A stretch of 64,000 nt of DNA from Escherichia coli (GCF_003790525.1 NZ_CP033635.1), one strand, 5' to 3'. Counted from the stretch's first letter, positions 13,328-45,231 are shown. The notes: generated by a model not told the origin, from the letters alone. A program made the numbers and translations.

Positions 13328-14523
<1,196 letters not shown>

Positions 14524-14671: not shown

Positions 14672-15778
14672 ATGAAAAATTTAACAGTGGCACTTTCTGC
14701 TGTAGCAGCATCAGTATTTCTGGCAACGTCTTCAAATGCAGCAGAAATATACAATAAAGATGCAAACAAAGTGGATTTATACGGTAAAGCAGTTGGTTTA
14801 CATTATTTTTCTTCTGATAAGGACCAAAACGGAGATCAGACTTACGCACGCCTTGGATTCAGAGGTGAAACCCAAATAAATAATTATATTACTGGTTTTG
14901 GTCAGTGGGAATATAATTTCCAGGGGAACAACCCTGAAGGGGATGGAGCTCAAACTGGAAACAAGACTCGCCTGGCATACGCTGGTCTGAAGCTTGCAGA
15001 TGCTGGCTCTCTTGACTATGGTCGTAACTACGGCGTGGTGTACGACGCATTAAGCTACACTGACGTCTTCCCGGAGTTTGGACCTACCACAGCGCAAAAG
15101 GATAACTTCTTCGTTGGTCGTGTAGGCGGTGTTGCCACATACCGCAACACTGACTTTTTTGGACTGGTCGATGGGCTTAGCTTTGCAATTCAGTATCTGG
15201 GAAAAAATGAACGCAAGGATAAACCAGATACTTCAAACGGAGAGGGTGTAGGTGGCTCTGTCAGCTATGAATATGAAGGATTTGGTTTTGTCGCAGCATA
15301 CGGCGCTGCTGATCGTACTAAAAATCAGAAAAAGGCTGAGCTTGGTAAAGGGAAAAAAGCTGAACAGTGGGCCACCGGGGTAAAATATGACGCAAATAAT
15401 CTGTACCTGGCTGCCAGTTATGGTGAAACAAATAATACCCGTGCAATATCGTATGGTGATAATATTTCAGGAGTGGCGAATAAAACCGAAGATTTCACTG
15501 TTGTGGCACAATACCAGTTCGACTTTGGATTACGCCCGTCTCTTGCTTATACCCACTCTAAAGCAAAAAACCTTTCATCCAGTACTGATATTAGTAAAAA
15601 ACATGATGACGGATATATTGAAAAATTCGTTGAAGTAGGGGCTTCTTATTACTTCAACAAAAATATGTCTACATACATAGATTACAAAATCAATATGCTC
15701 GATAAAAATAAATTCACTGAAAGAACAGGAGTATCAACCGACGATATTGTCGCTGTTGGTCTGGTTTATCAGTTCTGA
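14672..15778 (+). CDS. Outer-membrane general porin, prophage-encoded (NmpC/Lc/OmpC family)
   Basis: 368 aa; signal peptide then AEIYNKD.NK.DLYGK...; [10 protein letters not shown]; [12 protein letters not shown]; [15 protein letters not shown]; C-terminal [12 protein letters not shown]; typical 16-strand porin signature, closest by memory to the DLP12 nmpC product. Confidence 0.9.
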
Positions 15779-15919
15779 TTTATTCTGTAAGAATATGCCG
15801 GGGGAGTGAGAACTTTTCTGGCATATAAAGTGGTGCCCTCATGCCACTGCAAAACGTTGGACAGTACTTAACTTTTCCAACGAACTTTCTGTTATTTATT
15901 AACCTTTTTGGTTTTTATA

Positions 15920-15948
15920 CTTGGGCGCTTTGCGCCCATTTTTTATTT
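15920..15948 (+). terminator. Rho-independent terminator downstream of the porin gene
   Basis: GGGCGCtttGCGCCC hairpin followed by ATTTTTTATTTTGT on the plus strand. Confidence 0.45.
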
Positions 15949-15956
15949 TGTACGCC

Positions 15957-16379
15957 TTATATCCCTGCCCTGGAGGACACAGTTTTACGACGTATCGAAT
16001 AATTTGTGCTCACATATCGATCCATCTCAAGGCGAACATCCAGCATCATCAACATACCATCAACCACTCCTTCAGCTTTTTGCAAACGCTTTCCAATATG
16101 CGTATCCGAACATCCATGTTTCCTTGCTAACTTCATGAACGTCATCCCATATACGTAGTAATCAACCAGCATGTCATGCATATCGGCGTTGTTCTTTTTC
16201 AGGCGAGCCATACAACCACATATAATCATCGCGTCATCATCGGAACACTGCGATCGCGATTTTACTTTTGACGGTATCAGCCCCTTAAATCCGGCGGCAA
16301 TGCCTGACCATTCCACGTCTTCATGATTATTTGCGACCCATGCCCCCCAACGTTCAAGAACCATCTGAATATCACGCAT
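15957..16379 (-). CDS. Late-gene antiterminator Q (DLP12 QuuD/YbcQ type)
   Basis: 140 aa [64 protein letters not shown]..., resembles the DLP12 prophage Q-like antiterminator as recalled; located upstream of the lysis cassette. Confidence 0.7.
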
Positions 16380-17236
16380 TATTCACACTCCCCAACCAGA
16401 TTGAGGATGACCTCTGCACCATTGTCTTTCATATATTCGCCCTTTCCGCTTGCCAAAAACCAACGACACACCTCCACGGCTTCAGCCCGTGTCACCGGTT
16501 TGATGGTCATCAGCAATTTTTCAAGGTAGCGCTCGCGGTCATATACCGATTCGTGATGCTCAGAGTAACCATACTCATCGCCCTGTTCTTTAGTTGCAGT
16601 GTGGCGAACACTGTAGAGCCAGTCCCAGTAAACAAACTCACGAACTACGTCTGACAATGTATGAGGCTCTGGCAGTACATCACGATAGCCATCAACATAT
16701 GCACGACGCTGATCATCAATTTCATTCATACGGATGCCGTCAATTCTGCCCGCTTTCTTCTCGGCTGCAGTCCAGCCCCAGAGATGATCGTCGATAAATT
16801 TCTGGGAAGACTTGATCACTCGCTCGGCTTCCACATCTTCGAGTGCTGCTTCATAGCTACCAAACGTAGCCCTGACTGATGCTGCTTTTTTGATATTCTC
16901 CCGGGCGATCCTGATTGCCTGTGCCGGGTTATCCATGCCGATGGTACCGAAAGCAATCTGGAAAGGATCGCCACCATTCGCCAGCAGATAACGCGAATAG
17001 CGTTCCTGGGCCTCTTTTGGGGATATTTTAATTTTCACCAGCGCGGCCTCAGCAGCATCCAGATGTGCGGGTTCGTTCAGACGGATAACCTCCAGTACCC
17101 AAAGATAAGCATCAGTCTGCTTATGCCCGGTGATTCTCCGTTGCTCTGGCAGGGGTTTGATGTTTGCGAGGGCGGAGCTGTACGCTGCCGTCGGGATGGT
17201 GAATAGTGCTTTATGTTCGTTGTTATCAGTACGCAT
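16379..17236 (-). CDS. Hypothetical phage protein (285 aa) immediately upstream of Q
   Basis: Clean ORF translationally abutting Q; no recognisable motif. Confidence 0.4.
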
Positions 17237-18204
17237 TACGCAGCCGCCTTTTTCTTATGGAAAACCAGCTCCCGAACCTGATCACCGTTCATGAGCATAT
17301 TGTTGAAATCATCGTGATCCGGCCAGTACACGCTCACGCGCTGCAGGTCATTCTTTGCCATCAGATTGGCATGAGCACATTCGCAAGCCGCAGCCAGCCC
17401 GGTGGCGCTGTTCTCGTCACGGTCGGCAAAAATAATCAGGTGCAGAACACCAGCTGGTACGCGGAACTTTTTCATAAAGCCGCTGTTAATGGTTGCCCAG
17501 GTGTTCACGTTATAAATCTGGTGCGCTGACAGCGCTGTTTCGATGCCTTCGGCGATACCCAGAGTGCTGGCGACAGGAAACATGCGGATAGCTACAGAAC
17601 GAGCGTGATCCAGATAGTTATCTTCCTGCAGGGATTTTAGGCGCTTTGCACTGCTACCGATATCTGCTTTTTTATCACCATCAAGCAGGGTCTGGTGCAG
17701 ATAGCACAGCTCCCCTTTATCGTCCGTAGCAAGTGAATAAAGAGACTGGAACACACTCCCGTTGTGTCTCTGCCTGGCATTGAACCTGATCGCCTCAGCA
17801 GGAAGACTGAATATTCCACGAGAATTAAGATACGCGGCGCCGGATGTACCACGCAGTGCCTCCAGTTTTGAAAACTTGCTCAATACCCGTTTGCGTAAGC
17901 TGGTGGCGCTGCTGGTTACCGGGATTTTAACCCGTTGGTAATTATTACCGATCAGGCGGTCTATTTCGGTACAAATCACGTTAAATGGCTTCGCCTGTGT
18001 CAGGGTGACAAGTTTCATACCATCGCCACTACCACATACACAGATCCACGTTCCTGCACCGTCGCGGTCGTCAATTCGGAACTTGCCACGTGCACCGCAT
18101 ACCGGGCATTCACCCTTAAAGTGATTTTTTCCGGTTATCGGCGGCAGACCGAAGTGCTCTAATATTTCAGGCCAGCGGCCTTTCGCTGCATCTGCTGTTT
18201 TCAT
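17236..18204 (-). CDS. Phage DNA primase (zinc-ribbon + Toprim-type)
   Basis: 322 aa; N-terminal zinc-binding pattern CPVCGARGKFRIDDRDGAGTWICVCGSGDG typical of P4-alpha/DnaG-like primase Zn domains; C-terminal acidic Toprim-like region (IIFADRDENSATG); adjacent to helicase. Confidence 0.65.
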   Translation of the reverse strand: MKTADAAKGRWPEILEHFGLPPITGKNHFKGECPVCGARGKFRIDDRDGAGTWICVCGSGDGMKLVTLTQAKPFNVICTEIDRLIGNNYQRVKIPVTSSATSLRKRVLSKFSKLEALRGTSGAAYLNSRGIFSLPAEAIRFNARQRHNGSVFQSLYSLATDDKGELCYLHQTLLDGDKKADIGSSAKRLKSLQEDNYLDHARSVAIRMFPVASTLGIAEGIETALSAHQIYNVNTWATINSGFMKKFRVPAGVLHLIIFADRDENSATGLAAACECAHANLMAKNDLQRVSVYWPDHDDFNNMLMNGDQVRELVFHKKKAAA

Positions 18205-18205
18205 C

Positions 18206-19864
18206 TTACTGACTCAGACTGTTTATATTTTTCTGGAGTTGTTGCTTTGCCTGCATAATGCGCCAAGCCTCACTTTCTTCCGGTGGAACATACCGGCCAC
18301 CAACAACCAGTGGCAGAGAAAGCACTTCGGATGAGTTTTTCGTCATCCTCCGTGTCCGTTCACGACCTTTAGCAAACCGGATCAGCTTGTGTCTGATGTA
18401 GTTACTTACCTCTGGGCTTATTTCCATCGGGAAACTGCTCAACCCATCAGGCCATTCACCGAATTTCTCCCTGAAAGTGTGAGCGCACCATCCATCACTG
18501 ACTGGACGCCCCAGTGAGGCACGCTGGCGCTGATAAAATTTGATCTGACTCCACCAGGCCTGTTTCTCTGCCTTCGTGGACTGATGCTGATTTTTACCCA
18601 GCTTATTAAGTTTGCGGCTAGTGTCAGTATCAACGTCTTCACCTCGCAGCGGCTTGTGTCCACATTTCGGGCAAACATAGACGCCAGCTGGCTTCATGTA
18701 GTGGCATTGAGGGCATTCATGTGGCAATTTTTCGGCCCGTTCCTCAACTGCGCGGCGCGTGCTTTCCTCCATGCCGTCAGACTTACCGGGAAGATCGTCG
18801 TACTCGATTGAATCCGGATAACCCAGACGGTGCACGGTGCCGCTGTGATCGAAGATAAGGCAGGACGCTTTACCCGGTGCGGTGCGAAGTCCACGCCCGA
18901 GTGCCTGCAACCAGCGAATTTCGCTTTTTGTTGGCCTGGCGTAGATGATGCAACGAACGTCACTATCGAATCCGGCTACCAGAACGCCCACACTAACGAT
19001 GATTTTCGTTGCACCGGTTTCAAAGCGGTGAATGATGGTCTGGCGCTCATCTACCGGAGTGTCGGCGGTCATTACCTCAGCGTTAACACCCGCCAGGTTA
19101 AACTGGATTGTCAGATAATTGGCGTGAGCTACGTTGACGCAGAAAGCGATGGTAGGTAAATCCCGACCATTCTCCAGCCAGTTCTGTACGATGTCGCCCA
19201 CCAGCGTAGAGCCGCACATGATTTCAGCCAGCTGCGTTTCGTTGTAATCCCGGCCGTACTCAAGCGAAGATGTGGTTTTAACACCTTTCAGATCCGGCTT
19301 AGTTGGCGCGTAAAATTCGTATTTACTCAGATCGCCACGCTGGATTAACTCGCCGATGGTGGTCGGCTTAATCAGTCGGTCATAGTATTTGCCCAGGAAC
19401 GGAGAAAACGGAGTACCCGACAGGCCAATCACCTTTACGCCTTTGCCGCGCAGACGTTCGATATCCTTCAGGATGCGTTTTTTACGCAGGTGCGCTTCGT
19501 CGATAATCAGCAGATCGATATTTTCAGGAAAAACACGACGAATAAGCGTGTCAGCGCTGGCAATCTGAATTTTCCGGTCCGGATCGTAGTTCGGGTGATC
19601 CGCCCAGATATAACCGATTTCATCTCCAGGTAAACCATACTGCACGAACCGATTAGCCGTCTGACCAATCAGGATGGTGTACGGAACACAGAACAGAACA
19701 CGCATACCACGGCTGACAAAACCAGCAACTATGAAGGCTGCCAGACCCGTTTTACCGCTACCTGTTGGCGAGTAAACCATGAAGGTGTCGTTTGCCTTCC
19801 AGTCACGGCGCAACATGTTTAGCGCTCGTTCCTGTGCAAAATTCGGCGTGATTGTCAGCTGCAT
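18206..19864 (-). CDS. Superfamily-2 DEAD/DEAH-box helicase (phage replication helicase)
   Basis: 552 aa; Walker A SPTGSGKT, DEAH box LIIDEAH, motif III SGTP, helicase C-terminal QALGRGLR; C-terminal Cys4 zinc ribbon (CPQCH...CPKCG). Confidence 0.8.
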   Translation of the reverse strand: MQLTITPNFAQERALNMLRRDWKANDTFMVYSPTGSGKTGLAAFIVAGFVSRGMRVLFCVPYTILIGQTANRFVQYGLPGDEIGYIWADHPNYDPDRKIQIASADTLIRRVFPENIDLLIIDEAHLRKKRILKDIERLRGKGVKVIGLSGTPFSPFLGKYYDRLIKPTTIGELIQRGDLSKYEFYAPTKPDLKGVKTTSSLEYGRDYNETQLAEIMCGSTLVGDIVQNWLENGRDLPTIAFCVNVAHANYLTIQFNLAGVNAEVMTADTPVDERQTIIHRFETGATKIIVSVGVLVAGFDSDVRCIIYARPTKSEIRWLQALGRGLRTAPGKASCLIFDHSGTVHRLGYPDSIEYDDLPGKSDGMEESTRRAVEERAEKLPHECPQCHYMKPAGVYVCPKCGHKPLRGEDVDTDTSRKLNKLGKNQHQSTKAEKQAWWSQIKFYQRQRASLGRPVSDGWCAHTFREKFGEWPDGLSSFPMEISPEVSNYIRHKLIRFAKGRERTRRMTKNSSEVLSLPLVVGGRYVPPEESEAWRIMQAKQQLQKNINSLSQ

Positions 19865-20475
19865 TGTGCTGCCTCCCCATGGTTCAGCGGGAGGCGCCTG
19901 AAATGGTGACCGCGATGAGACTTTGTTCTTCCAGCAATAACAGCATAAACACTACCGTGATCAAACCCGGCACTAATTAGCGCCTTTTTCCCGCAAAAGG
20001 TTTGCTCTTCCCTGGTCGCAATATTTGTGGCGACAATCAGGCCCTTAAATTGTTTGTTGTTCGCCCCCTGAGAATTATTCAGCCCGGTGTGAATAGAATG
20101 CTGAATGTTTTCGCTATGGCTAACCCACTCCAGATTGGATGCATGGTTATTCAGCTTGTTGCCGTCCTTATGGTTCACTTCAGGGTGGTTGTAAGGGTTG
20201 CTGCAAAAAGCCAGCGCTACCAGACGGTGTACGGCAAAAGTTTGGCGATTACGTTTGTAGCTCAGGTTAACGGTTTTATATCCATCCCGGCGCACTCTTC
20301 CCTTGAGGAACACGCCACGAATTTGGCGAATAAAAAATTCCGATTCAGCAATTCGATTAACCCCACGGATGCGTCCCGCCGAGCTAACGAGGTAAGCATC
20401 ACCATACGGAGCAACAGGAACCGGAAGCCATTTTTCACCATCAAAACTGTTAACCATAAAATCACCTCTGAACAT
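19855..20475 (-). CDS. HNH homing-type endonuclease (NUMOD4/HNH_3-like)
   Basis: 206 aa; GEKWLPVPVAPYGDAYLVSSAGRIR (NUMOD4-like) and HRLVALAF...PEVNHKDGNKLNNHASNLEWVSHSEN (HNH motif). Start may be the internal Met (MVNSFDGEKW). Confidence 0.7.
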   Translation of the reverse strand: MFRGDFMVNSFDGEKWLPVPVAPYGDAYLVSSAGRIRGVNRIAESEFFIRQIRGVFLKGRVRRDGYKTVNLSYKRNRQTFAVHRLVALAFCSNPYNHPEVNHKDGNKLNNHASNLEWVSHSENIQHSIHTGLNNSQGANNKQFKGLIVATNIATREEQTFCGKKALISAGFDHGSVYAVIAGRTKSHRGHHFRRLPLNHGEAAQCS

Positions 20476-42678: not shown

Positions 42679-42914
42679 GTCGCCAATCCTGGAAAGAGTA
42701 TTAAGCGTAAATGATGCCAGATCGCAAAGCGTTCAATGGTTTGAGTAAGGGGCAAAACAGGCGGGATTTAGGGCGTTTATGCAAAAAACAGGTTCAGTTG
42801 CAGAACGTTTTGCGAACCATTTTCCAGTTCTGATATTTAGCCATTTAGCCTATAGAATCGCCCACCGCCTCTCTGTTAGTTTGCTAATAATTAAATTATT
42901 ACAAAGGCGATCAA

Positions 42915-44423
42915 ATGGAATGGCAACAATTGCTTAACTGCAACCGTCGGAAAGATAATCTAAAAAAAACCAGCATAGAATTTTTACATCCCCTTGCTAG
43001 CGGAAGACAAGAGATCGAGCGGGATTACGACCGATTACTTTTTGCTGCGCCAACTCGTCGGCTTGCGGATAAAACACAAGTTTTCCCGTTAGATCAAAAT
43101 GACAGTATACGGACGAGGCTGACTCATTCTCACGAAGTAGCAAACTTTGCTCGCGGAATAGGAATGAGACTCGCTTTCGAGATGAAGGAACACATCTTTG
43201 GCGAAATACCCACGGGGATTGTCGTTGAACGCGACGTTCCTGCTCTGTTAGCAGCGATCGGACTGGCACACGATCTCGGTAATCCACCATTTGGGCATCA
43301 AGGTGAAGCAGCGATGCGCGCATGGTTTAATAAAAATCTTCCAGGCCTTCTTGATAAAGAAGTAAACAGCGAAATATATAACGACTTTCTGCAATTTGAT
43401 GGAAACTCACAAACCCTACGCCTGGTTACCAAATTACAAATTATTAACGATAACTTTGGTCTGAATCTGACCTATGCCACGCTGGCTGCACTGATCAAAT
43501 ATCCCCGAGCTTCATATTCATCGGACAAACATTGGAAAAAGCACGGTTTTTTCTATTCTGAGCATGAGGTTGTCATGGATGTCTGGCAGCAAACGGGCCT
43601 TGGCGTACCAGGTAATGATGCCGGTTGCCGCCACCCATTTACCTGGATAATGGAAGCTTGCGACGATATTGCCTACTCTGTGCTTGACGCAGAAGATACC
43701 ATCAAGAAAGGATTTGCCTCATACCAGGATTTGCGTGATTTTTTGATGTCACAATCCGAGCCGAACGATGTAATTCAACATGTTATTGAAGCTGTAGAGG
43801 CCAAAAATGACGCCTGGAAAGAGCAAAGAAATGCACTTTCACCGGCGGAAATTAATGAACTCAGTATGCAAATGTTCAGAGTTTATGCCACCAGTGCATT
43901 GATTAATGCCGTAGTAGAAGCCTTTCGCGAACAATTACCCACGCTGATGCAGCGTGACTGCCCGTTCAAAGATTTAATCTCGCAAAGCAAAGGTCACGCT
44001 CTCTGCACTGCCCTGAAAATGTTCGACCGAACACGAGGCTACCTTCATCGTTCAGTCTTGCAACTGGAACTTAGGGGATCTAATTACATTACTAACTTGA
44101 TGGATATGCTCTGGATTGGCATCCATGGACACAAAACAAAGAAACAACGAGACGGAGAACGCGAGTCCGCGTCTGCAGATAACCTTTTTGTTTCTCGTGA
44201 AGAATACCTGTCGGATACTCCCTTTGGTCGCTATGCTTACGGGACAATCTCTGAAAATTATCGCCGTGTGTTTGAAGATCCCGCCAATACACTCCCTGCT
44301 CTTTATAAAGAAGCGCAGTTGCTTACCGACGCAATCTCAGGCATGACGGATAGTTATTTAATGCGCCTTCACGATGAGCTAAAATCACTGTATGAATGTG
44401 GTCTCAAACACCCAACAGCTTGA
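42915..44423 (+). CDS. Dgt-family deoxynucleoside triphosphate triphosphohydrolase (dGTPase-like HD-domain protein), accessory paralog
   Basis: 502 aa; dGTPase family motifs in Dgt order: RRLADKTQVFPL, RTRLTHSHEV, GLAHDLGNPPFGH (HD), FTWIMEACDDIAYSVLDAEDTIKKG, ISGMTDSYLMRLHDEL. AT-rich gene on the strand opposite the flanking flagellar/che genes. Confidence 0.8.
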   Translation: MEWQQLLNCNRRKDNLKKTSIEFLHPLASGRQEIERDYDRLLFAAPTRRLADKTQVFPLDQNDSIRTRLTHSHEVANFARGIGMRLAFEMKEHIFGEIPTGIVVERDVPALLAAIGLAHDLGNPPFGHQGEAAMRAWFNKNLPGLLDKEVNSEIYNDFLQFDGNSQTLRLVTKLQIINDNFGLNLTYATLAALIKYPRASYSSDKHWKKHGFFYSEHEVVMDVWQQTGLGVPGNDAGCRHPFTWIMEACDDIAYSVLDAEDTIKKGFASYQDLRDFLMSQSEPNDVIQHVIEAVEAKNDAWKEQRNALSPAEINELSMQMFRVYATSALINAVVEAFREQLPTLMQRDCPFKDLISQSKGHALCTALKMFDRTRGYLHRSVLQLELRGSNYITNLMDMLWIGIHGHKTKKQRDGERESASADNLFVSREEYLSDTPFGRYAYGTISENYRRVFEDPANTLPALYKEAQLLTDAISGMTDSYLMRLHDELKSLYECGLKHPTA

Positions 44424-45144
44424 ACAGCGTATCGCCGATTTTTTTACGCTTAGTGATGAGCATAAGAAAGCCAGAGTATTACTTGATACTCTGGCCTGTT
44501 CCTGTCCGGCCTGGATTTTTGGCGGGATGGTGCGTGACTTAGGCTTGTTTGGCGTCGAGGGATTCTCTTCAGACCTTGATATCGTCATCGGTCGCTCCCG
44601 TGAGGAACTCTTCCGGACATTGGCTGAACTGCCCGTCAAACAACTGCGTTTTAATAAGTTCGGTGGGATCCGTTTTCGTTATCACGACTTCGAATTTGAT
44701 ATCTGGAACCTCAATGAGACATGGGCATTTCGGGAAAAACTTATATTTTGTGAGGATGAATCAAGTCTGTTAAACACTACGCTGATGAGTTGGGATGCCG
44801 TGCTCTATGATCTACGTAGTGAAAAAATTATCAGTAAAGATAATTATTTGACCGACTTAAATCGCAGACATCTTGAACTTGTTCTTCATACTAACCCCAA
44901 TCCAAGCGGTTCGGTAACGAAAATTTTACGCACTATTTTTACTAAGCAGGTAAAGAGTTTAGGTCCGGAACTCTGTCATTTCTTGCACCATGAACTGACG
45001 AAAAAACGTTATGAAGTTTGGCATCATTACGATGTACTGCACTACCAGTCATCGTCATTTTCTCGTTCACAATTTAATGCGTTGATAAATTTACTGGCGC
45101 AACAATCACGCTTCGCTGATCTAAAATTATCAAATTACAAATAA
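44392..45144 (+). CDS. Pol-beta superfamily nucleotidyltransferase (CCA-adding/poly(A)-polymerase-head-like motif), partner of the dGTPase-like gene
   Basis: 250 aa; overlaps upstream gene by 32 nt; N-terminal FGGMVRDLGLFGVEGFSSDLDIVIG matches the GG-x-[VI]RD...DxD nucleotidyltransferase signature; no HD or other known C-terminal domain. Confidence 0.6.
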   Translation: MNVVSNTQQLEQRIADFFTLSDEHKKARVLLDTLACSCPAWIFGGMVRDLGLFGVEGFSSDLDIVIGRSREELFRTLAELPVKQLRFNKFGGIRFRYHDFEFDIWNLNETWAFREKLIFCEDESSLLNTTLMSWDAVLYDLRSEKIISKDNYLTDLNRRHLELVLHTNPNPSGSVTKILRTIFTKQVKSLGPELCHFLHHELTKKRYEVWHHYDVLHYQSSSFSRSQFNALINLLAQQSRFADLKLSNYK

Positions 45145-45189
45145 CCATCCTCCACATACTTCCTGAACGATACCCGCCCCCCTGCTATC

Positions 45190-45212
45190 GGCCTGGCATC
45201 ATCGCGCAGGCC
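45190..45212. terminator. Hairpin between convergent NTase gene and cheZ (possible bidirectional terminator)
   Basis: GGCCTG-gcatcatcgcg-CAGGCC inverted repeat; no clear T-run, so weak. Confidence 0.25.
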
Positions 45213-45231
45213 GAAGTTAAGGCAATACAAA

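What the first reader, a model, noticed from the sequence alone, without database searches (positions are those of the whole stretch)
17236..20475. Replication module of helicase + zinc-ribbon/Toprim primase with an HNH homing-type endonuclease immediately upstream
In place of lambda O/P the phage carries its own SF2 helicase (with a C-terminal zinc ribbon) and a primase, with an HNH/NUMOD4-type endonuclease overlapping the helicase start. HNH endonucleases here may act as homing elements or be co-opted for packaging or replication; the arrangement makes replication independent of host DnaB loading by a P-like protein.
Basis: partly seen in the sequence, partly recalled or inferred. Interest (0 to 1): 0.35.

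Follow-up and report, generated by a model that had tools for sequence, protein, structure and literature searches.

The report
Prophage helicase-primase module with mobile HNH gene
A lambda-like E. coli prophage replaces the lambda O/P replication genes with a known kind of helicase-plus-primase pair, and a rare, selfish-looking HNH nuclease gene sits directly in front of the helicase; the region is well explained and fairly ordinary.

Summary
On the minus strand, three co-directional genes give clear domain hits. There is an I-HmuI-type HNH endonuclease (19855-20457, NUMOD4+HNH_3). There is an SF2 DEAH helicase with a CxxC...CxxC zinc ribbon (18206-19864). There is a P4-alpha-type Zn-ribbon/Toprim primase (17236-18204). 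The prophage sits at yecE and has no recognisable O/P, DnaB or DnaC genes.

The helicase and primase are 67% and 58% identical to Eru1A and Eru1B of Stx phage TL-2011c. This is a sister of the published "Eru1" replication unit, so the module is already known in kind.

The HNH gene behaves like a free-standing homing endonuclease:
- It occurs in only 6 of 98 complete E. coli genomes that carry this helicase.
- It is always in the same slot.
- The cassette is 100% identical across backgrounds whose adjacent helicase differs by about 2%.
- Its phylogeny is incongruent with that of the helicase.
- Its dN/dS is about 0.09.
- Relatives in Salmonella, Yersinia and Serratia occupy the same position.

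The slot is otherwise empty or holds a small PD-(D/E)XK-fold protein. Isolated phages with an empty slot show that the nuclease is dispensable. A packaging role is not supported, and independence from host DnaB is untested. Interest is low to moderate.

The parts
19855..20457 (-). HNH endonuclease gene, 200 aa, with NUMOD4 + HNH_3 + an I-HmuI-like C-terminal DNA-binding region. The longest ORF extends to an upstream ATG at 20475.
   Evidence: Pfam and PHROG hits. I-HmuI 1U3E matches at E=1e-17 over residues 53-194 of the 206-aa ORF. H96, K97, G99, N104, N108 and W111 are invariant in 15 relatives. The Shine-Dalgarno sequence GAGGTGA precedes 20457. RefSeq WP_016234524.1 uses this start.
19855..19864 (-). 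10-nt overlap of the HNH stop codon with the helicase start (...CAATGCAGCTGA). I infer translational coupling.
   Evidence: In HNH-less relatives a 19-codon leader ORF (MKTTSQNYYLI..AQCS*) ends at the same place. The HNH C-terminus ...GEAAQCS* is homologous to the tail of that leader.
18206..19864 (-). SF2 DEAH-box helicase, 552 aa, an Eru1A homologue.
   Evidence: ResIII, DEAD and Helicase_C hits; phrog_16. 67% identity to TL-2011c Eru1A. The closest solved relative is RadD 6JDE.
18662..18715 (-). Zinc-ribbon motif CPQCHYMKPAGVYVCPKC, helicase aa 384-401.
   Evidence: Read directly from the translation. Conserved in Eru1A as CPKCHFMKPAGVHMCPKC.
17236..18204 (-). Stand-alone P4-alpha-type primase, 322 aa, with a Zn ribbon, DUF7146 and Toprim_3; an Eru1B homologue.
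   Evidence: phrog_510. 58% identity to Eru1B. 26% identity, E=4e-19, to residues 8-262 of P4 gp-alpha, aligning CPVCG, IAEGIETAL (versus IAEGYATAL) and ADRD.
16379..17236 (-). 285-aa accessory gene of unknown function (phrog_6204). Its start overlaps the primase stop and its stop overlaps the Q start. It is optional in the family.
19878..20695 (-). 818-nt variable cassette (non-coding leader + HNH gene). It replaces a 397-nt non-coding stretch in the otherwise 99-99.5% identical empty-slot twin L015.
   Evidence: BLAST boundaries; alignments.
20458..20715 (-). Non-coding region between the 97-aa ORF and the HNH gene. It contains a G-rich tract, the hairpin AGCGC-GAA-GCGCT (20575-20587) and two TAGACGTC-containing 15-mers (20478-20492 and 20648-20662).
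   Evidence: Blocks are conserved in Salmonella and Serratia HNH loci. No Rfam match.
15957..16379 (-). Antiterminator Q, at the end of the early-right operon (context).
   Evidence: Phage_antitermQ 180 bits.
20716..21294 (-). Upstream genes of the operon: a Cro/YdaS-like HTH protein (21022-21294) and a 97-aa ORF of unknown function, phrog_852 (20716-21009) (context).

Best explanation
This is the early-right operon of a lambda-like prophage integrated at yecE. Its replication module is a sister of the published 'Eru1' unit: an SF2 DEAH helicase with a zinc ribbon, plus a stand-alone P4-alpha-type Zn-ribbon/Toprim primase. These two are the only recognisable replication genes.

The core module in the family is a conserved non-coding region of about 430 nt, then the helicase, then the primase. 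The short slot directly upstream of the helicase is optional. In this window it holds an I-HmuI-family HNH endonuclease gene.

The most likely reading is that this HNH gene is a free-standing homing endonuclease. After induction it is transcribed with the replication genes. I infer that it nicks or cuts HNH-less alleles near the helicase start in co-resident or co-infecting relatives, and that it is copied in by recombinational repair. This keeps it tied to one site while it moves between helicase alleles.

The gene has taken over the 3' end of a conserved leader ORF. Helicase translation therefore stays coupled to an upstream ORF.

Shown here: the domain identities, the homology to Eru1A/Eru1B and P4 alpha, the slot polymorphism, the identity tract, the incongruent phylogeny, and purifying selection.

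Inferred: nuclease activity, the target site, the homing mechanism, the translational coupling, and the roles of the helicase and primase in replication.
For: Domains.

Eru1 homology: helicase 67% and primase 58% identical to TL-2011c Eru1A and Eru1B (PMC8044961). No O/P/DnaB/DnaC-like gene in the prophage.

Sporadic distribution at a fixed site: the helicase occurs in 98 of 5426 complete E. coli genomes. The HNH gene occurs in 6, always in this slot. The alternative 122-aa gene occurs in 38 and the empty slot in 42. Among 68 informative IMG/VR loci the counts are 49 empty, 17 with the 122-aa gene and 2 with HNH.

Empty-slot twin: L015 has flanks 99-99.5% identical to the window, with 818 nt exchanged for 397 nt.

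Recent lateral transfer: there are 0 mismatches over 781 nt (19854-20634) against L007, L008 and L048. Their adjoining helicase carries 18 mismatches in 865 nt, the nearest one 11 nt inside the gene.

Independent histories: HNH alleles A and B have dS 0.62 while their helicases have dS 0.036. Window versus Salmonella gives HNH 86% but helicase 76%.

Long-term tie to the site: relatives 54-89% identical in Salmonella, Yersinia and Serratia all lie immediately upstream of, and overlap, the homologous helicase+primase.

Likely active protein: dN/dS is 0.08-0.10, like the helicase, and catalytic-motif residues are invariant.

Dispensable: the isolated phages Fostie, YP3 and ENT39118 have an empty slot.
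Against: No nuclease activity, target site or biased inheritance has been measured.

The cassette is a replacement with shared boundaries in all three slot states. That also fits ordinary lambdoid mosaic recombination without endonuclease drive.

The first 36 nt of the helicase are identical in the HNH+ window and in HNH-less phi467. No self-immunity change is therefore visible downstream of the junction.

Strong purifying selection, and a second unrelated nuclease fold in the same slot, could instead mean a useful accessory function.

That the helicase and primase drive replication is inferred from position and homology only, as in the Eru1 paper.
Confidence: 0.65

Rival explanations
1. The HNH protein is a domesticated accessory of the replication module. 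The slot would be a 'nuclease slot', and its product would work with the SF2 helicase. It might nick the phage origin or competitor DNA to give the helicase-primase an entry point, or it might exclude related phages. The HNH and the PD-(D/E)XK protein would be non-homologous substitutes for one another.
For: Two unrelated nuclease folds alternate at exactly the same position. Each is tightly linked to the helicase start.

HNH dN/dS is about 0.09. The association is conserved across four genera.
Against: 43-72% of modules have no gene in the slot.

Three phages isolated as virions replicate with an empty slot.

The HNH phylogeny is decoupled from that of the helicase.

Confidence: 0.15
2. The HNH gene is a passive passenger, a 'moron' moved by ordinary homologous recombination at conserved module boundaries. 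Its own nuclease would play no part in its spread.
For: All three slot states share the same left boundary, about 20 nt after the 97-aa ORF, and the same right boundary, 13-20 nt before the helicase ATG. Lambdoid prophages are mosaics: the immunity and Q regions differ among the HNH+ loci.
Against: The catalytic motif is intact and under purifying selection. The family is the classic homing type. Association with this one site across genera, despite the incongruent trees, is hard to explain without site specificity. The 781-nt identity tract ends within 25 nt of the helicase start.
Confidence: 0.12
3. The HNH endonuclease is a packaging cofactor working with the terminase, as in HK97 gp74-type systems.
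For: Only the general precedent that some phage HNH proteins assist terminases (my own knowledge).
Against: The gene lies in the early operon, roughly 10 kb from the terminase genes in the near-identical TUM1886 prophage. Its architecture is NUMOD4/HNH_3/I-HmuI-like. Most relatives with the same lambda-like structural genes lack it.
Confidence: 0.02

Closest known systems
Eru1 replication unit of Stx phage TL-2011c (eru1A helicase, eru1B Toprim protein; Llarena et al. 2021, PMC8044961)
   Same: It occupies the same position downstream of cI/cro in place of O/P. The helicase is 67% identical, including the zinc ribbon, and the primase 58% identical. TL-2011c also has a small gene (gp29) overlapping the helicase start. 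That gene is 40% identical to the 122-aa protein found in this slot in HNH-less relatives.
   Different: There is no nucleotide-level match to TL-2011c, so it fails that paper's >80% BLASTn criterion. The gene after the primase is a 285-aa unknown, not eru1C/NinB. The helicase is 46 aa longer. The slot holds an HNH gene rather than the gp29 type.
I-HmuI (Bacillus phage SPO1 intron-encoded HNH nicking homing endonuclease, PDB 1U3E)
   Same: The sequence match (E=1e-17) spans the HNH core and the C-terminal DNA-binding region. The domain family is the same NUMOD4/HNH_3 type.
   Different: It is free-standing between genes rather than inside a group I intron. It sits in a temperate enterobacterial prophage. 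Its activity and target are untested. The residue aligned with the Asp before the catalytic His of I-HmuI (VDHKDG) is Asn here (VNHKDG).
Free-standing homing endonucleases of T4-like phages (MobE, SegF, SegG; 'intronless homing'; PMC2790892, PMC2988022) and nuclease genes at exchange boundaries (PMC10448857)
   Same: It is a nuclease gene inserted between conserved genes, next to an essential replication gene. Its distribution among close relatives is patchy, and an identity tract ends at the neighbouring gene.
   Different: The host is a temperate lambdoid prophage. The gene replaces alternative cassettes (empty, or PD-(D/E)XK) and has fused to a leader ORF. No experimental crosses exist.
Phage P4 gp-alpha primase domain (EGYATA-type Toprim primases)
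   Same: The Zn ribbon, the IAEG(I/Y)(E/A)TAL motif and the ADRD motif all align.
   Different: It is only 26% identical. It is a stand-alone 322-aa protein without the SF3 helicase and origin-binding domains of P4 alpha, and it is paired instead with a separate SF2 helicase.
E. coli RadD (YejH) SF2 DNA-repair helicase
   Same: RadD is the best solved-structure and NCBIfam relative. It is an SF2 core followed by a zinc-binding element (that RadD has such an element is my own knowledge).
   Different: The score is 94 bits against a 720-bit family cut-off, so it is not a RadD orthologue. The matched part is mainly the second RecA domain.
Salmonella prophage Fels-1 (STM0901.1n helicase, STM0901 primase)
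   Same: The gene order is the same: 97-aa ORF, slot, helicase, primase, 286-aa protein, Q. The helicase is 85% and the primase 95% identical.
   Different: The Fels-1 slot holds the 122-aa PD-(D/E)XK-fold gene, not the HNH gene.

Membership tests
I-HmuI-like HNH homing endonucleases | N-terminal NUMOD4 module | tested here: met
   PF07463 at 36.7 bits against a 23.4-bit cut-off.
I-HmuI-like HNH homing endonucleases | HNH (beta-beta-alpha-metal) catalytic core with the conserved His and Asn residues | tested here: met
   PF13392 at 35.1 bits against a 24.8-bit cut-off. The core aligns with 1U3E. H96, N104 and N108 are invariant in 15 relatives.
I-HmuI-like HNH homing endonucleases | C-terminal NUMOD-like helix-turn-helix DNA-binding region | tested here: met
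   The alignment to I-HmuI runs to residue 170 of 174. PF22083 hits allele B only weakly, 18.6 bits, below its 27-bit cut-off. PF22083 is precomputed for several relatives. The window copy itself has no separate Pfam hit for this region.
I-HmuI-like HNH homing endonucleases | Site-specific nicking or cleavage of DNA lacking the element | not testable with these tools
   This needs in vitro cleavage assays on empty-slot and 122-aa-gene alleles.
I-HmuI-like HNH homing endonucleases | Mobility signature: patchy presence at one site, recent transfer, and a phylogeny decoupled from the host gene | tested here: met
   Present in 6 of 98 genomes, always in the same slot. A 781-nt tract is 100% identical in backgrounds diverged by 2%. 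Identities and dS values are incongruent with the helicase.
Eru1 replication unit (Llarena et al. 2021) | SF2 DEAD/DEAH helicase homologous to Eru1A, and Toprim protein homologous to Eru1B, in place of O/P | tested here: met
   67% and 58% amino-acid identity. No O/P genes.
Eru1 replication unit (Llarena et al. 2021) | More than 80% nucleotide identity and coverage to eru1A-C of TL-2011c (the paper's operational criterion) | tested here: not met
   Megablast of the 5.5-kb region against the phage collection gave no TL-2011c hit. Amino-acid identity is only 58-67%.
Eru1 replication unit (Llarena et al. 2021) | eru1C (DUF1367/NinB) downstream of the primase | tested here: not met
   The downstream gene is a 285-aa protein of phrog_6204 with no Pfam hit. 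TL-2011c has NinB there.
P4-alpha / EGYATA-type Toprim primases | Zn ribbon plus a Toprim domain with the EGYATA-like and DxD motifs | tested here: met
   PF08273 and PF13362. The alignment with P4 alpha covers CPVCG, IAEGIETAL and ADRD.
P4-alpha / EGYATA-type Toprim primases | Fusion to an SF3 helicase and an origin-binding domain, as in P4 alpha | tested here: not met
   The protein is 322 aa and aligns only with residues 8-262 of the 777-aa alpha protein.
RadD (YejH) helicase | Score above the NCBIfam equivalog cut-off | tested here: not met
   NF053632 at 93.8 bits against a 720-bit cut-off.
Terminase-associated HNH (HK97 gp74 type) | A small HNH protein encoded next to the terminase genes and needed for cos cleavage | tested here: not met
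   The gene is in the early operon. In the near-identical prophage the terminase genes lie about 10 kb away. The domain architecture also differs. The functional requirement could not be tested.

The most novel reading that the evidence does not exclude
The position directly upstream of this SF2 helicase would be a dedicated nuclease slot rather than a parasite landing pad. An I-HmuI-type HNH nickase and an unrelated 122-aa PD-(D/E)XK protein are interchangeable there. The latter's nearest fold is Bax1, the nuclease partner of the SF2 helicase XPB. Both would act as translationally coupled partners of the helicase-primase, for example by nicking at the conserved G-rich non-coding region to start replication or by attacking rival prophages. 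That would define a nuclease-assisted initiation or competition mode for Eru1-type phages.
Probability: 0.1. Interest if true: 0.55.

Novelty: new member of a known kind. Interest (0 to 1): 0.27.

Why it matters
The helicase-primase (Eru1-type) replication unit is carried by medically important Stx phages, and its mechanism is still unknown. This window adds a diverged sister module.

Comparison shows that the minimal unit is a conserved non-coding region of about 430 nt plus the helicase and the primase.

The slot in front of the helicase exists in nature in three states: empty, a PD-(D/E)XK protein, or an HNH endonuclease. In some cases these occur in otherwise 99% identical prophages. That gives a ready-made system for testing homing and phage-phage competition in temperate enterobacterial phages.

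None of this overturns current understanding.

Tried and rejected
- Rfam scan of 15800-22300 at E<=1: no match.
- Promoter and terminator consensus scan of 19700-21450: no more sites than in shuffled sequence.
- Repeat search of 15900-21400: no iteron-like array. Only short two-copy repeats turned up, of which the TAGACGTC 15-mers are recorded.
- NCBIfam: nothing for the HNH protein, the primase, the 285-aa protein, the 97-aa protein or the 122-aa protein.
- PDB sequence search with the primase: no hit.
- My first count of '751 genomes with the module' was wrong. It counted any piece of the 5.5-kb query, such as Q and cro. The helicase alone gives 98 genomes.
- I looked for a self-immunity difference in the helicase 5' end between HNH+ and HNH-less alleles and found none that was consistent.
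- Packaging role: rejected on gene position, family and distribution.
- Essential replication role for the nuclease: rejected because isolated phages have an empty slot.


Full report
WHAT IS THERE

Between 15957 and 21294 the minus strand carries one tightly packed operon. Its genes, in transcription order, are:
- a Cro/YdaS-like HTH gene (21294-21022);
- a 97-aa ORF of unknown function, phrog_852 (21009-20716);
- 240-260 nt of non-coding DNA;
- an HNH endonuclease gene (20457-19855; an in-frame upstream ATG lies at 20475);
- an SF2 helicase (19864-18206);
- a primase (18204-17236);
- a 285-aa gene (17236-16379);
- antiterminator Q (16379-15957).

A divergent LexA/S24-type repressor lies at 21351-22118.

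All Pfam hits clear their gathering thresholds. The HNH protein hits NUMOD4 and HNH_3. The helicase hits ResIII, DEAD and Helicase_C. The primase hits Zn_Ribbon_Prim, DUF7146 and Toprim_3. PHROG hits agree, with E-values from 1e-40 to 1e-130. The helicase has the SF2 motifs and a CPQC...CPKC zinc ribbon at aa 384-401.

CONTEXT

The region is 99.9% identical to a prophage of E. coli TUM1886. That prophage is integrated next to yecE and has lambda-like lysis, terminase, portal, capsid and tail genes. It has no O, P, DnaB or DnaC-like gene. A PHROG scan of the early-left genes that differ in the window found only an anti-repressor and proteins of unknown function. The helicase and primase are thus the only recognisable replication genes.

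THE REPLICATION MODULE IS OF A PUBLISHED KIND

Llarena et al. (PMC8044961) described Stx phages that lack O/P and instead carry eru1A (SF2 DEAH helicase), eru1B (Toprim protein) and eru1C. They assigned these genes to replication on positional grounds.

The window helicase is 67% identical to Eru1A over 502 residues, including the zinc ribbon. The primase is 58% identical to Eru1B. There is no nucleotide-level match to TL-2011c, and the gene after the primase differs. This is therefore a sister type, not Eru1 in the strict sense.

Closer relatives include Stx2f phage phi467, Salmonella Fels-1, and the phages Fostie, YP3 and ENT39118.

The primase aligns with the N-terminal primase domain of P4 gp-alpha (E=4e-19). 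The alignment matches the Zn ribbon, the EGYATA-type motif (IAEGIETAL) and ADRD.

The nearest solved and curated relative of the helicase is RadD. At 94 bits against a 720-bit cut-off it is not a RadD orthologue.

Whether this helicase is the replicative helicase, and whether host DnaB is dispensable, cannot be decided here.

THE HNH GENE

The HNH protein matches the homing endonuclease I-HmuI (1U3E) at E=1e-17, across both the catalytic core and the C-terminal DNA-binding part.

Among 5426 complete E. coli genomes:
- the helicase occurs in 98;
- the HNH gene occurs in 6, always in this slot;
- a 122-aa gene (phrog_1347) occupies the slot in 38;
- a gene-less version of the slot occurs in 42.

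Among 68 informative IMG/VR loci, 49 are empty, 17 have the 122-aa gene and 2 have the HNH gene.

Locus L015 is an empty-slot twin of the window. Its flanks are 99-99.5% identical, and 818 nt (19878-20695) are exchanged for 397 nt. The HNH gene is therefore part of a replacement cassette. The boundaries lie about 20 nt after the 97-aa ORF and 13-20 nt before the helicase ATG.

SIGNATURES OF MOBILITY

Five E. coli genomes and two IMG/VR contigs carry the allele. In three of those loci the adjacent helicase is about 2% diverged (18 mismatches in 865 nt, the nearest one 11 nt inside the gene). Yet the cassette shows no mismatch over 781 nt. At 2% divergence about 16 differences would be expected.

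A second allele (86.5% nucleotide identity, strain LH50-c) sits in a background whose helicase is 99% identical. For this pair, dS is 0.62 for the HNH gene and 0.036 for the helicase.

Relatives 54-89% identical occur in Salmonella, Yersinia enterocolitica and Serratia prophages. In every place examined they lie immediately upstream of, and overlap, the homologous helicase+primase. Their pairwise identities do not track those of the helicases. For example, window versus Salmonella gives HNH 86% but helicase 76%.

The gene is under purifying selection (dN/dS 0.08-0.10, like the helicase and primase), and the catalytic-motif residues are invariant.

Patchy presence, a fixed site, recent lateral transfer, a decoupled phylogeny and a maintained enzyme together form the expected pattern for a free-standing homing endonuclease. 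Precedents are the T4 mob/seg genes and the nuclease genes at exchange boundaries in phages (PMC2790892, PMC2988022, PMC10448857).

HOW THE HNH GENE IS WIRED IN

Empty and 122-aa-gene slots contain a strongly conserved 19-codon leader ORF (MKTTSQNYYLI..AQCS*). It is preceded by GAGGGGG, and its stop lies 10 nt inside the helicase gene. In TL-2011c the gp29 ORF ends at the same place.

The HNH protein ends ...GEAAQCS*, and its stop is in the identical position. The HNH ORF has therefore fused to the last few codons of the leader. Helicase translation is presumably still coupled to an upstream ORF; this is an inference.

WHAT THE HNH GENE DISPLACED

Two unrelated nuclease folds therefore alternate in one slot. 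This could mean that the slot attracts selfish nucleases. It could instead mean that a nuclease is a useful partner of the helicase. The phages Fostie, YP3 and ENT39118, all isolated as virions, have an empty slot, and the first two also lack the 285-aa gene. Neither the nuclease nor the 285-aa protein is therefore essential. I rate the accessory-partner reading at about 0.1-0.15.

OTHER CHECKS

No Rfam family, iteron array or significant promoter/terminator signal was found. The 285-aa protein remains of unknown function despite a confident model.

VERDICT

The domain assignments are right, and the homing interpretation is well supported by comparative evidence, though unproven biochemically. 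The packaging idea is not supported, and the DnaB-independence claim is untested. The module belongs to a known kind (Eru1-like). The HNH lineage tied to this helicase is a new member of a known kind. Interest is low to moderate.

Noticed in passing
[not shown]
   Followed up: partly
L015:3092-3500 and 48 other IMG/VR loci; the corresponding window segment 19878-20695 is replaced: The gene-less version of the slot is a non-coding region conserved in both length (425-434 nt) and sequence. It has a G-rich tract (GGGGAAGAGGGAAAGGGGGGTAAGGGGGGATTGGGTGTAGGGG), several hairpins and a 19-codon leader ORF that ends inside the helicase start. It is a candidate origin or regulatory leader for the helicase-primase module.
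   Followed up: partly
window 20575-20587 (minus strand): The hairpin AGCGC-GAA-GCGCT lies in a conserved non-coding block. Cassettes with the 122-aa gene, and the Serratia HNH locus, have AGTGC-GAA-GCACT. That is a compensatory double change which keeps the stem. There is no Rfam match.
   Followed up: partly
window 20478-20492 and 20648-20662: Two copies of a 15-mer with a palindromic core (TAGACGTC) flank the conserved block. They occur in the HNH cassettes of E. coli and Salmonella, and once in Serratia. They are absent from the Yersinia HNH loci and from the aligned representatives of the empty and 122-aa-gene slots. Their meaning is unknown.
   Followed up: partly
window 18206-18400: The last ~65 codons of the helicase are a divergence hot spot, with about 50 mismatches in 200 nt against phi467 and others compared with 1-6 elsewhere. 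This variable linker precedes a conserved C-terminal tail (EAWRIMQAKQQLQKNINSLSQ). TL-2011c Eru1A lacks this end.
   Followed up: no
window 16379-17236: The 285-aa protein has distant relatives that carry an extra ~45-aa N-terminal sigma-70-region-4-like HTH, which is missing here. The gene is absent from Fostie, YP3 and TL-2011c. The fold is all-helical with no informative structural match.
   Followed up: yes
window 13396-14376: An IS5-family transposase ORF (326 aa) lies between the prophage porin gene and the lysis genes. The nearly identical TUM1886 prophage has no IS there.
   Followed up: partly
window 14672-15778: An OmpC-like porin gene (368 aa) sits on the opposite strand just downstream of Q. 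It is a typical lambdoid cargo gene.
   Followed up: no
window 42783-45219: A stretch of about 2.4 kb has no counterpart in TUM1886. It lies in the chromosomal flank at the position between cheZ and flhB. It was not examined.
   Followed up: no
L014:37771-37872 (TUM1886 record 2252370-2252471): RefSeq annotates a truncated HNH endonuclease pseudogene between the lysis and terminase genes of the near-identical prophage. The surrounding segment did not align to the window.
   Followed up: no
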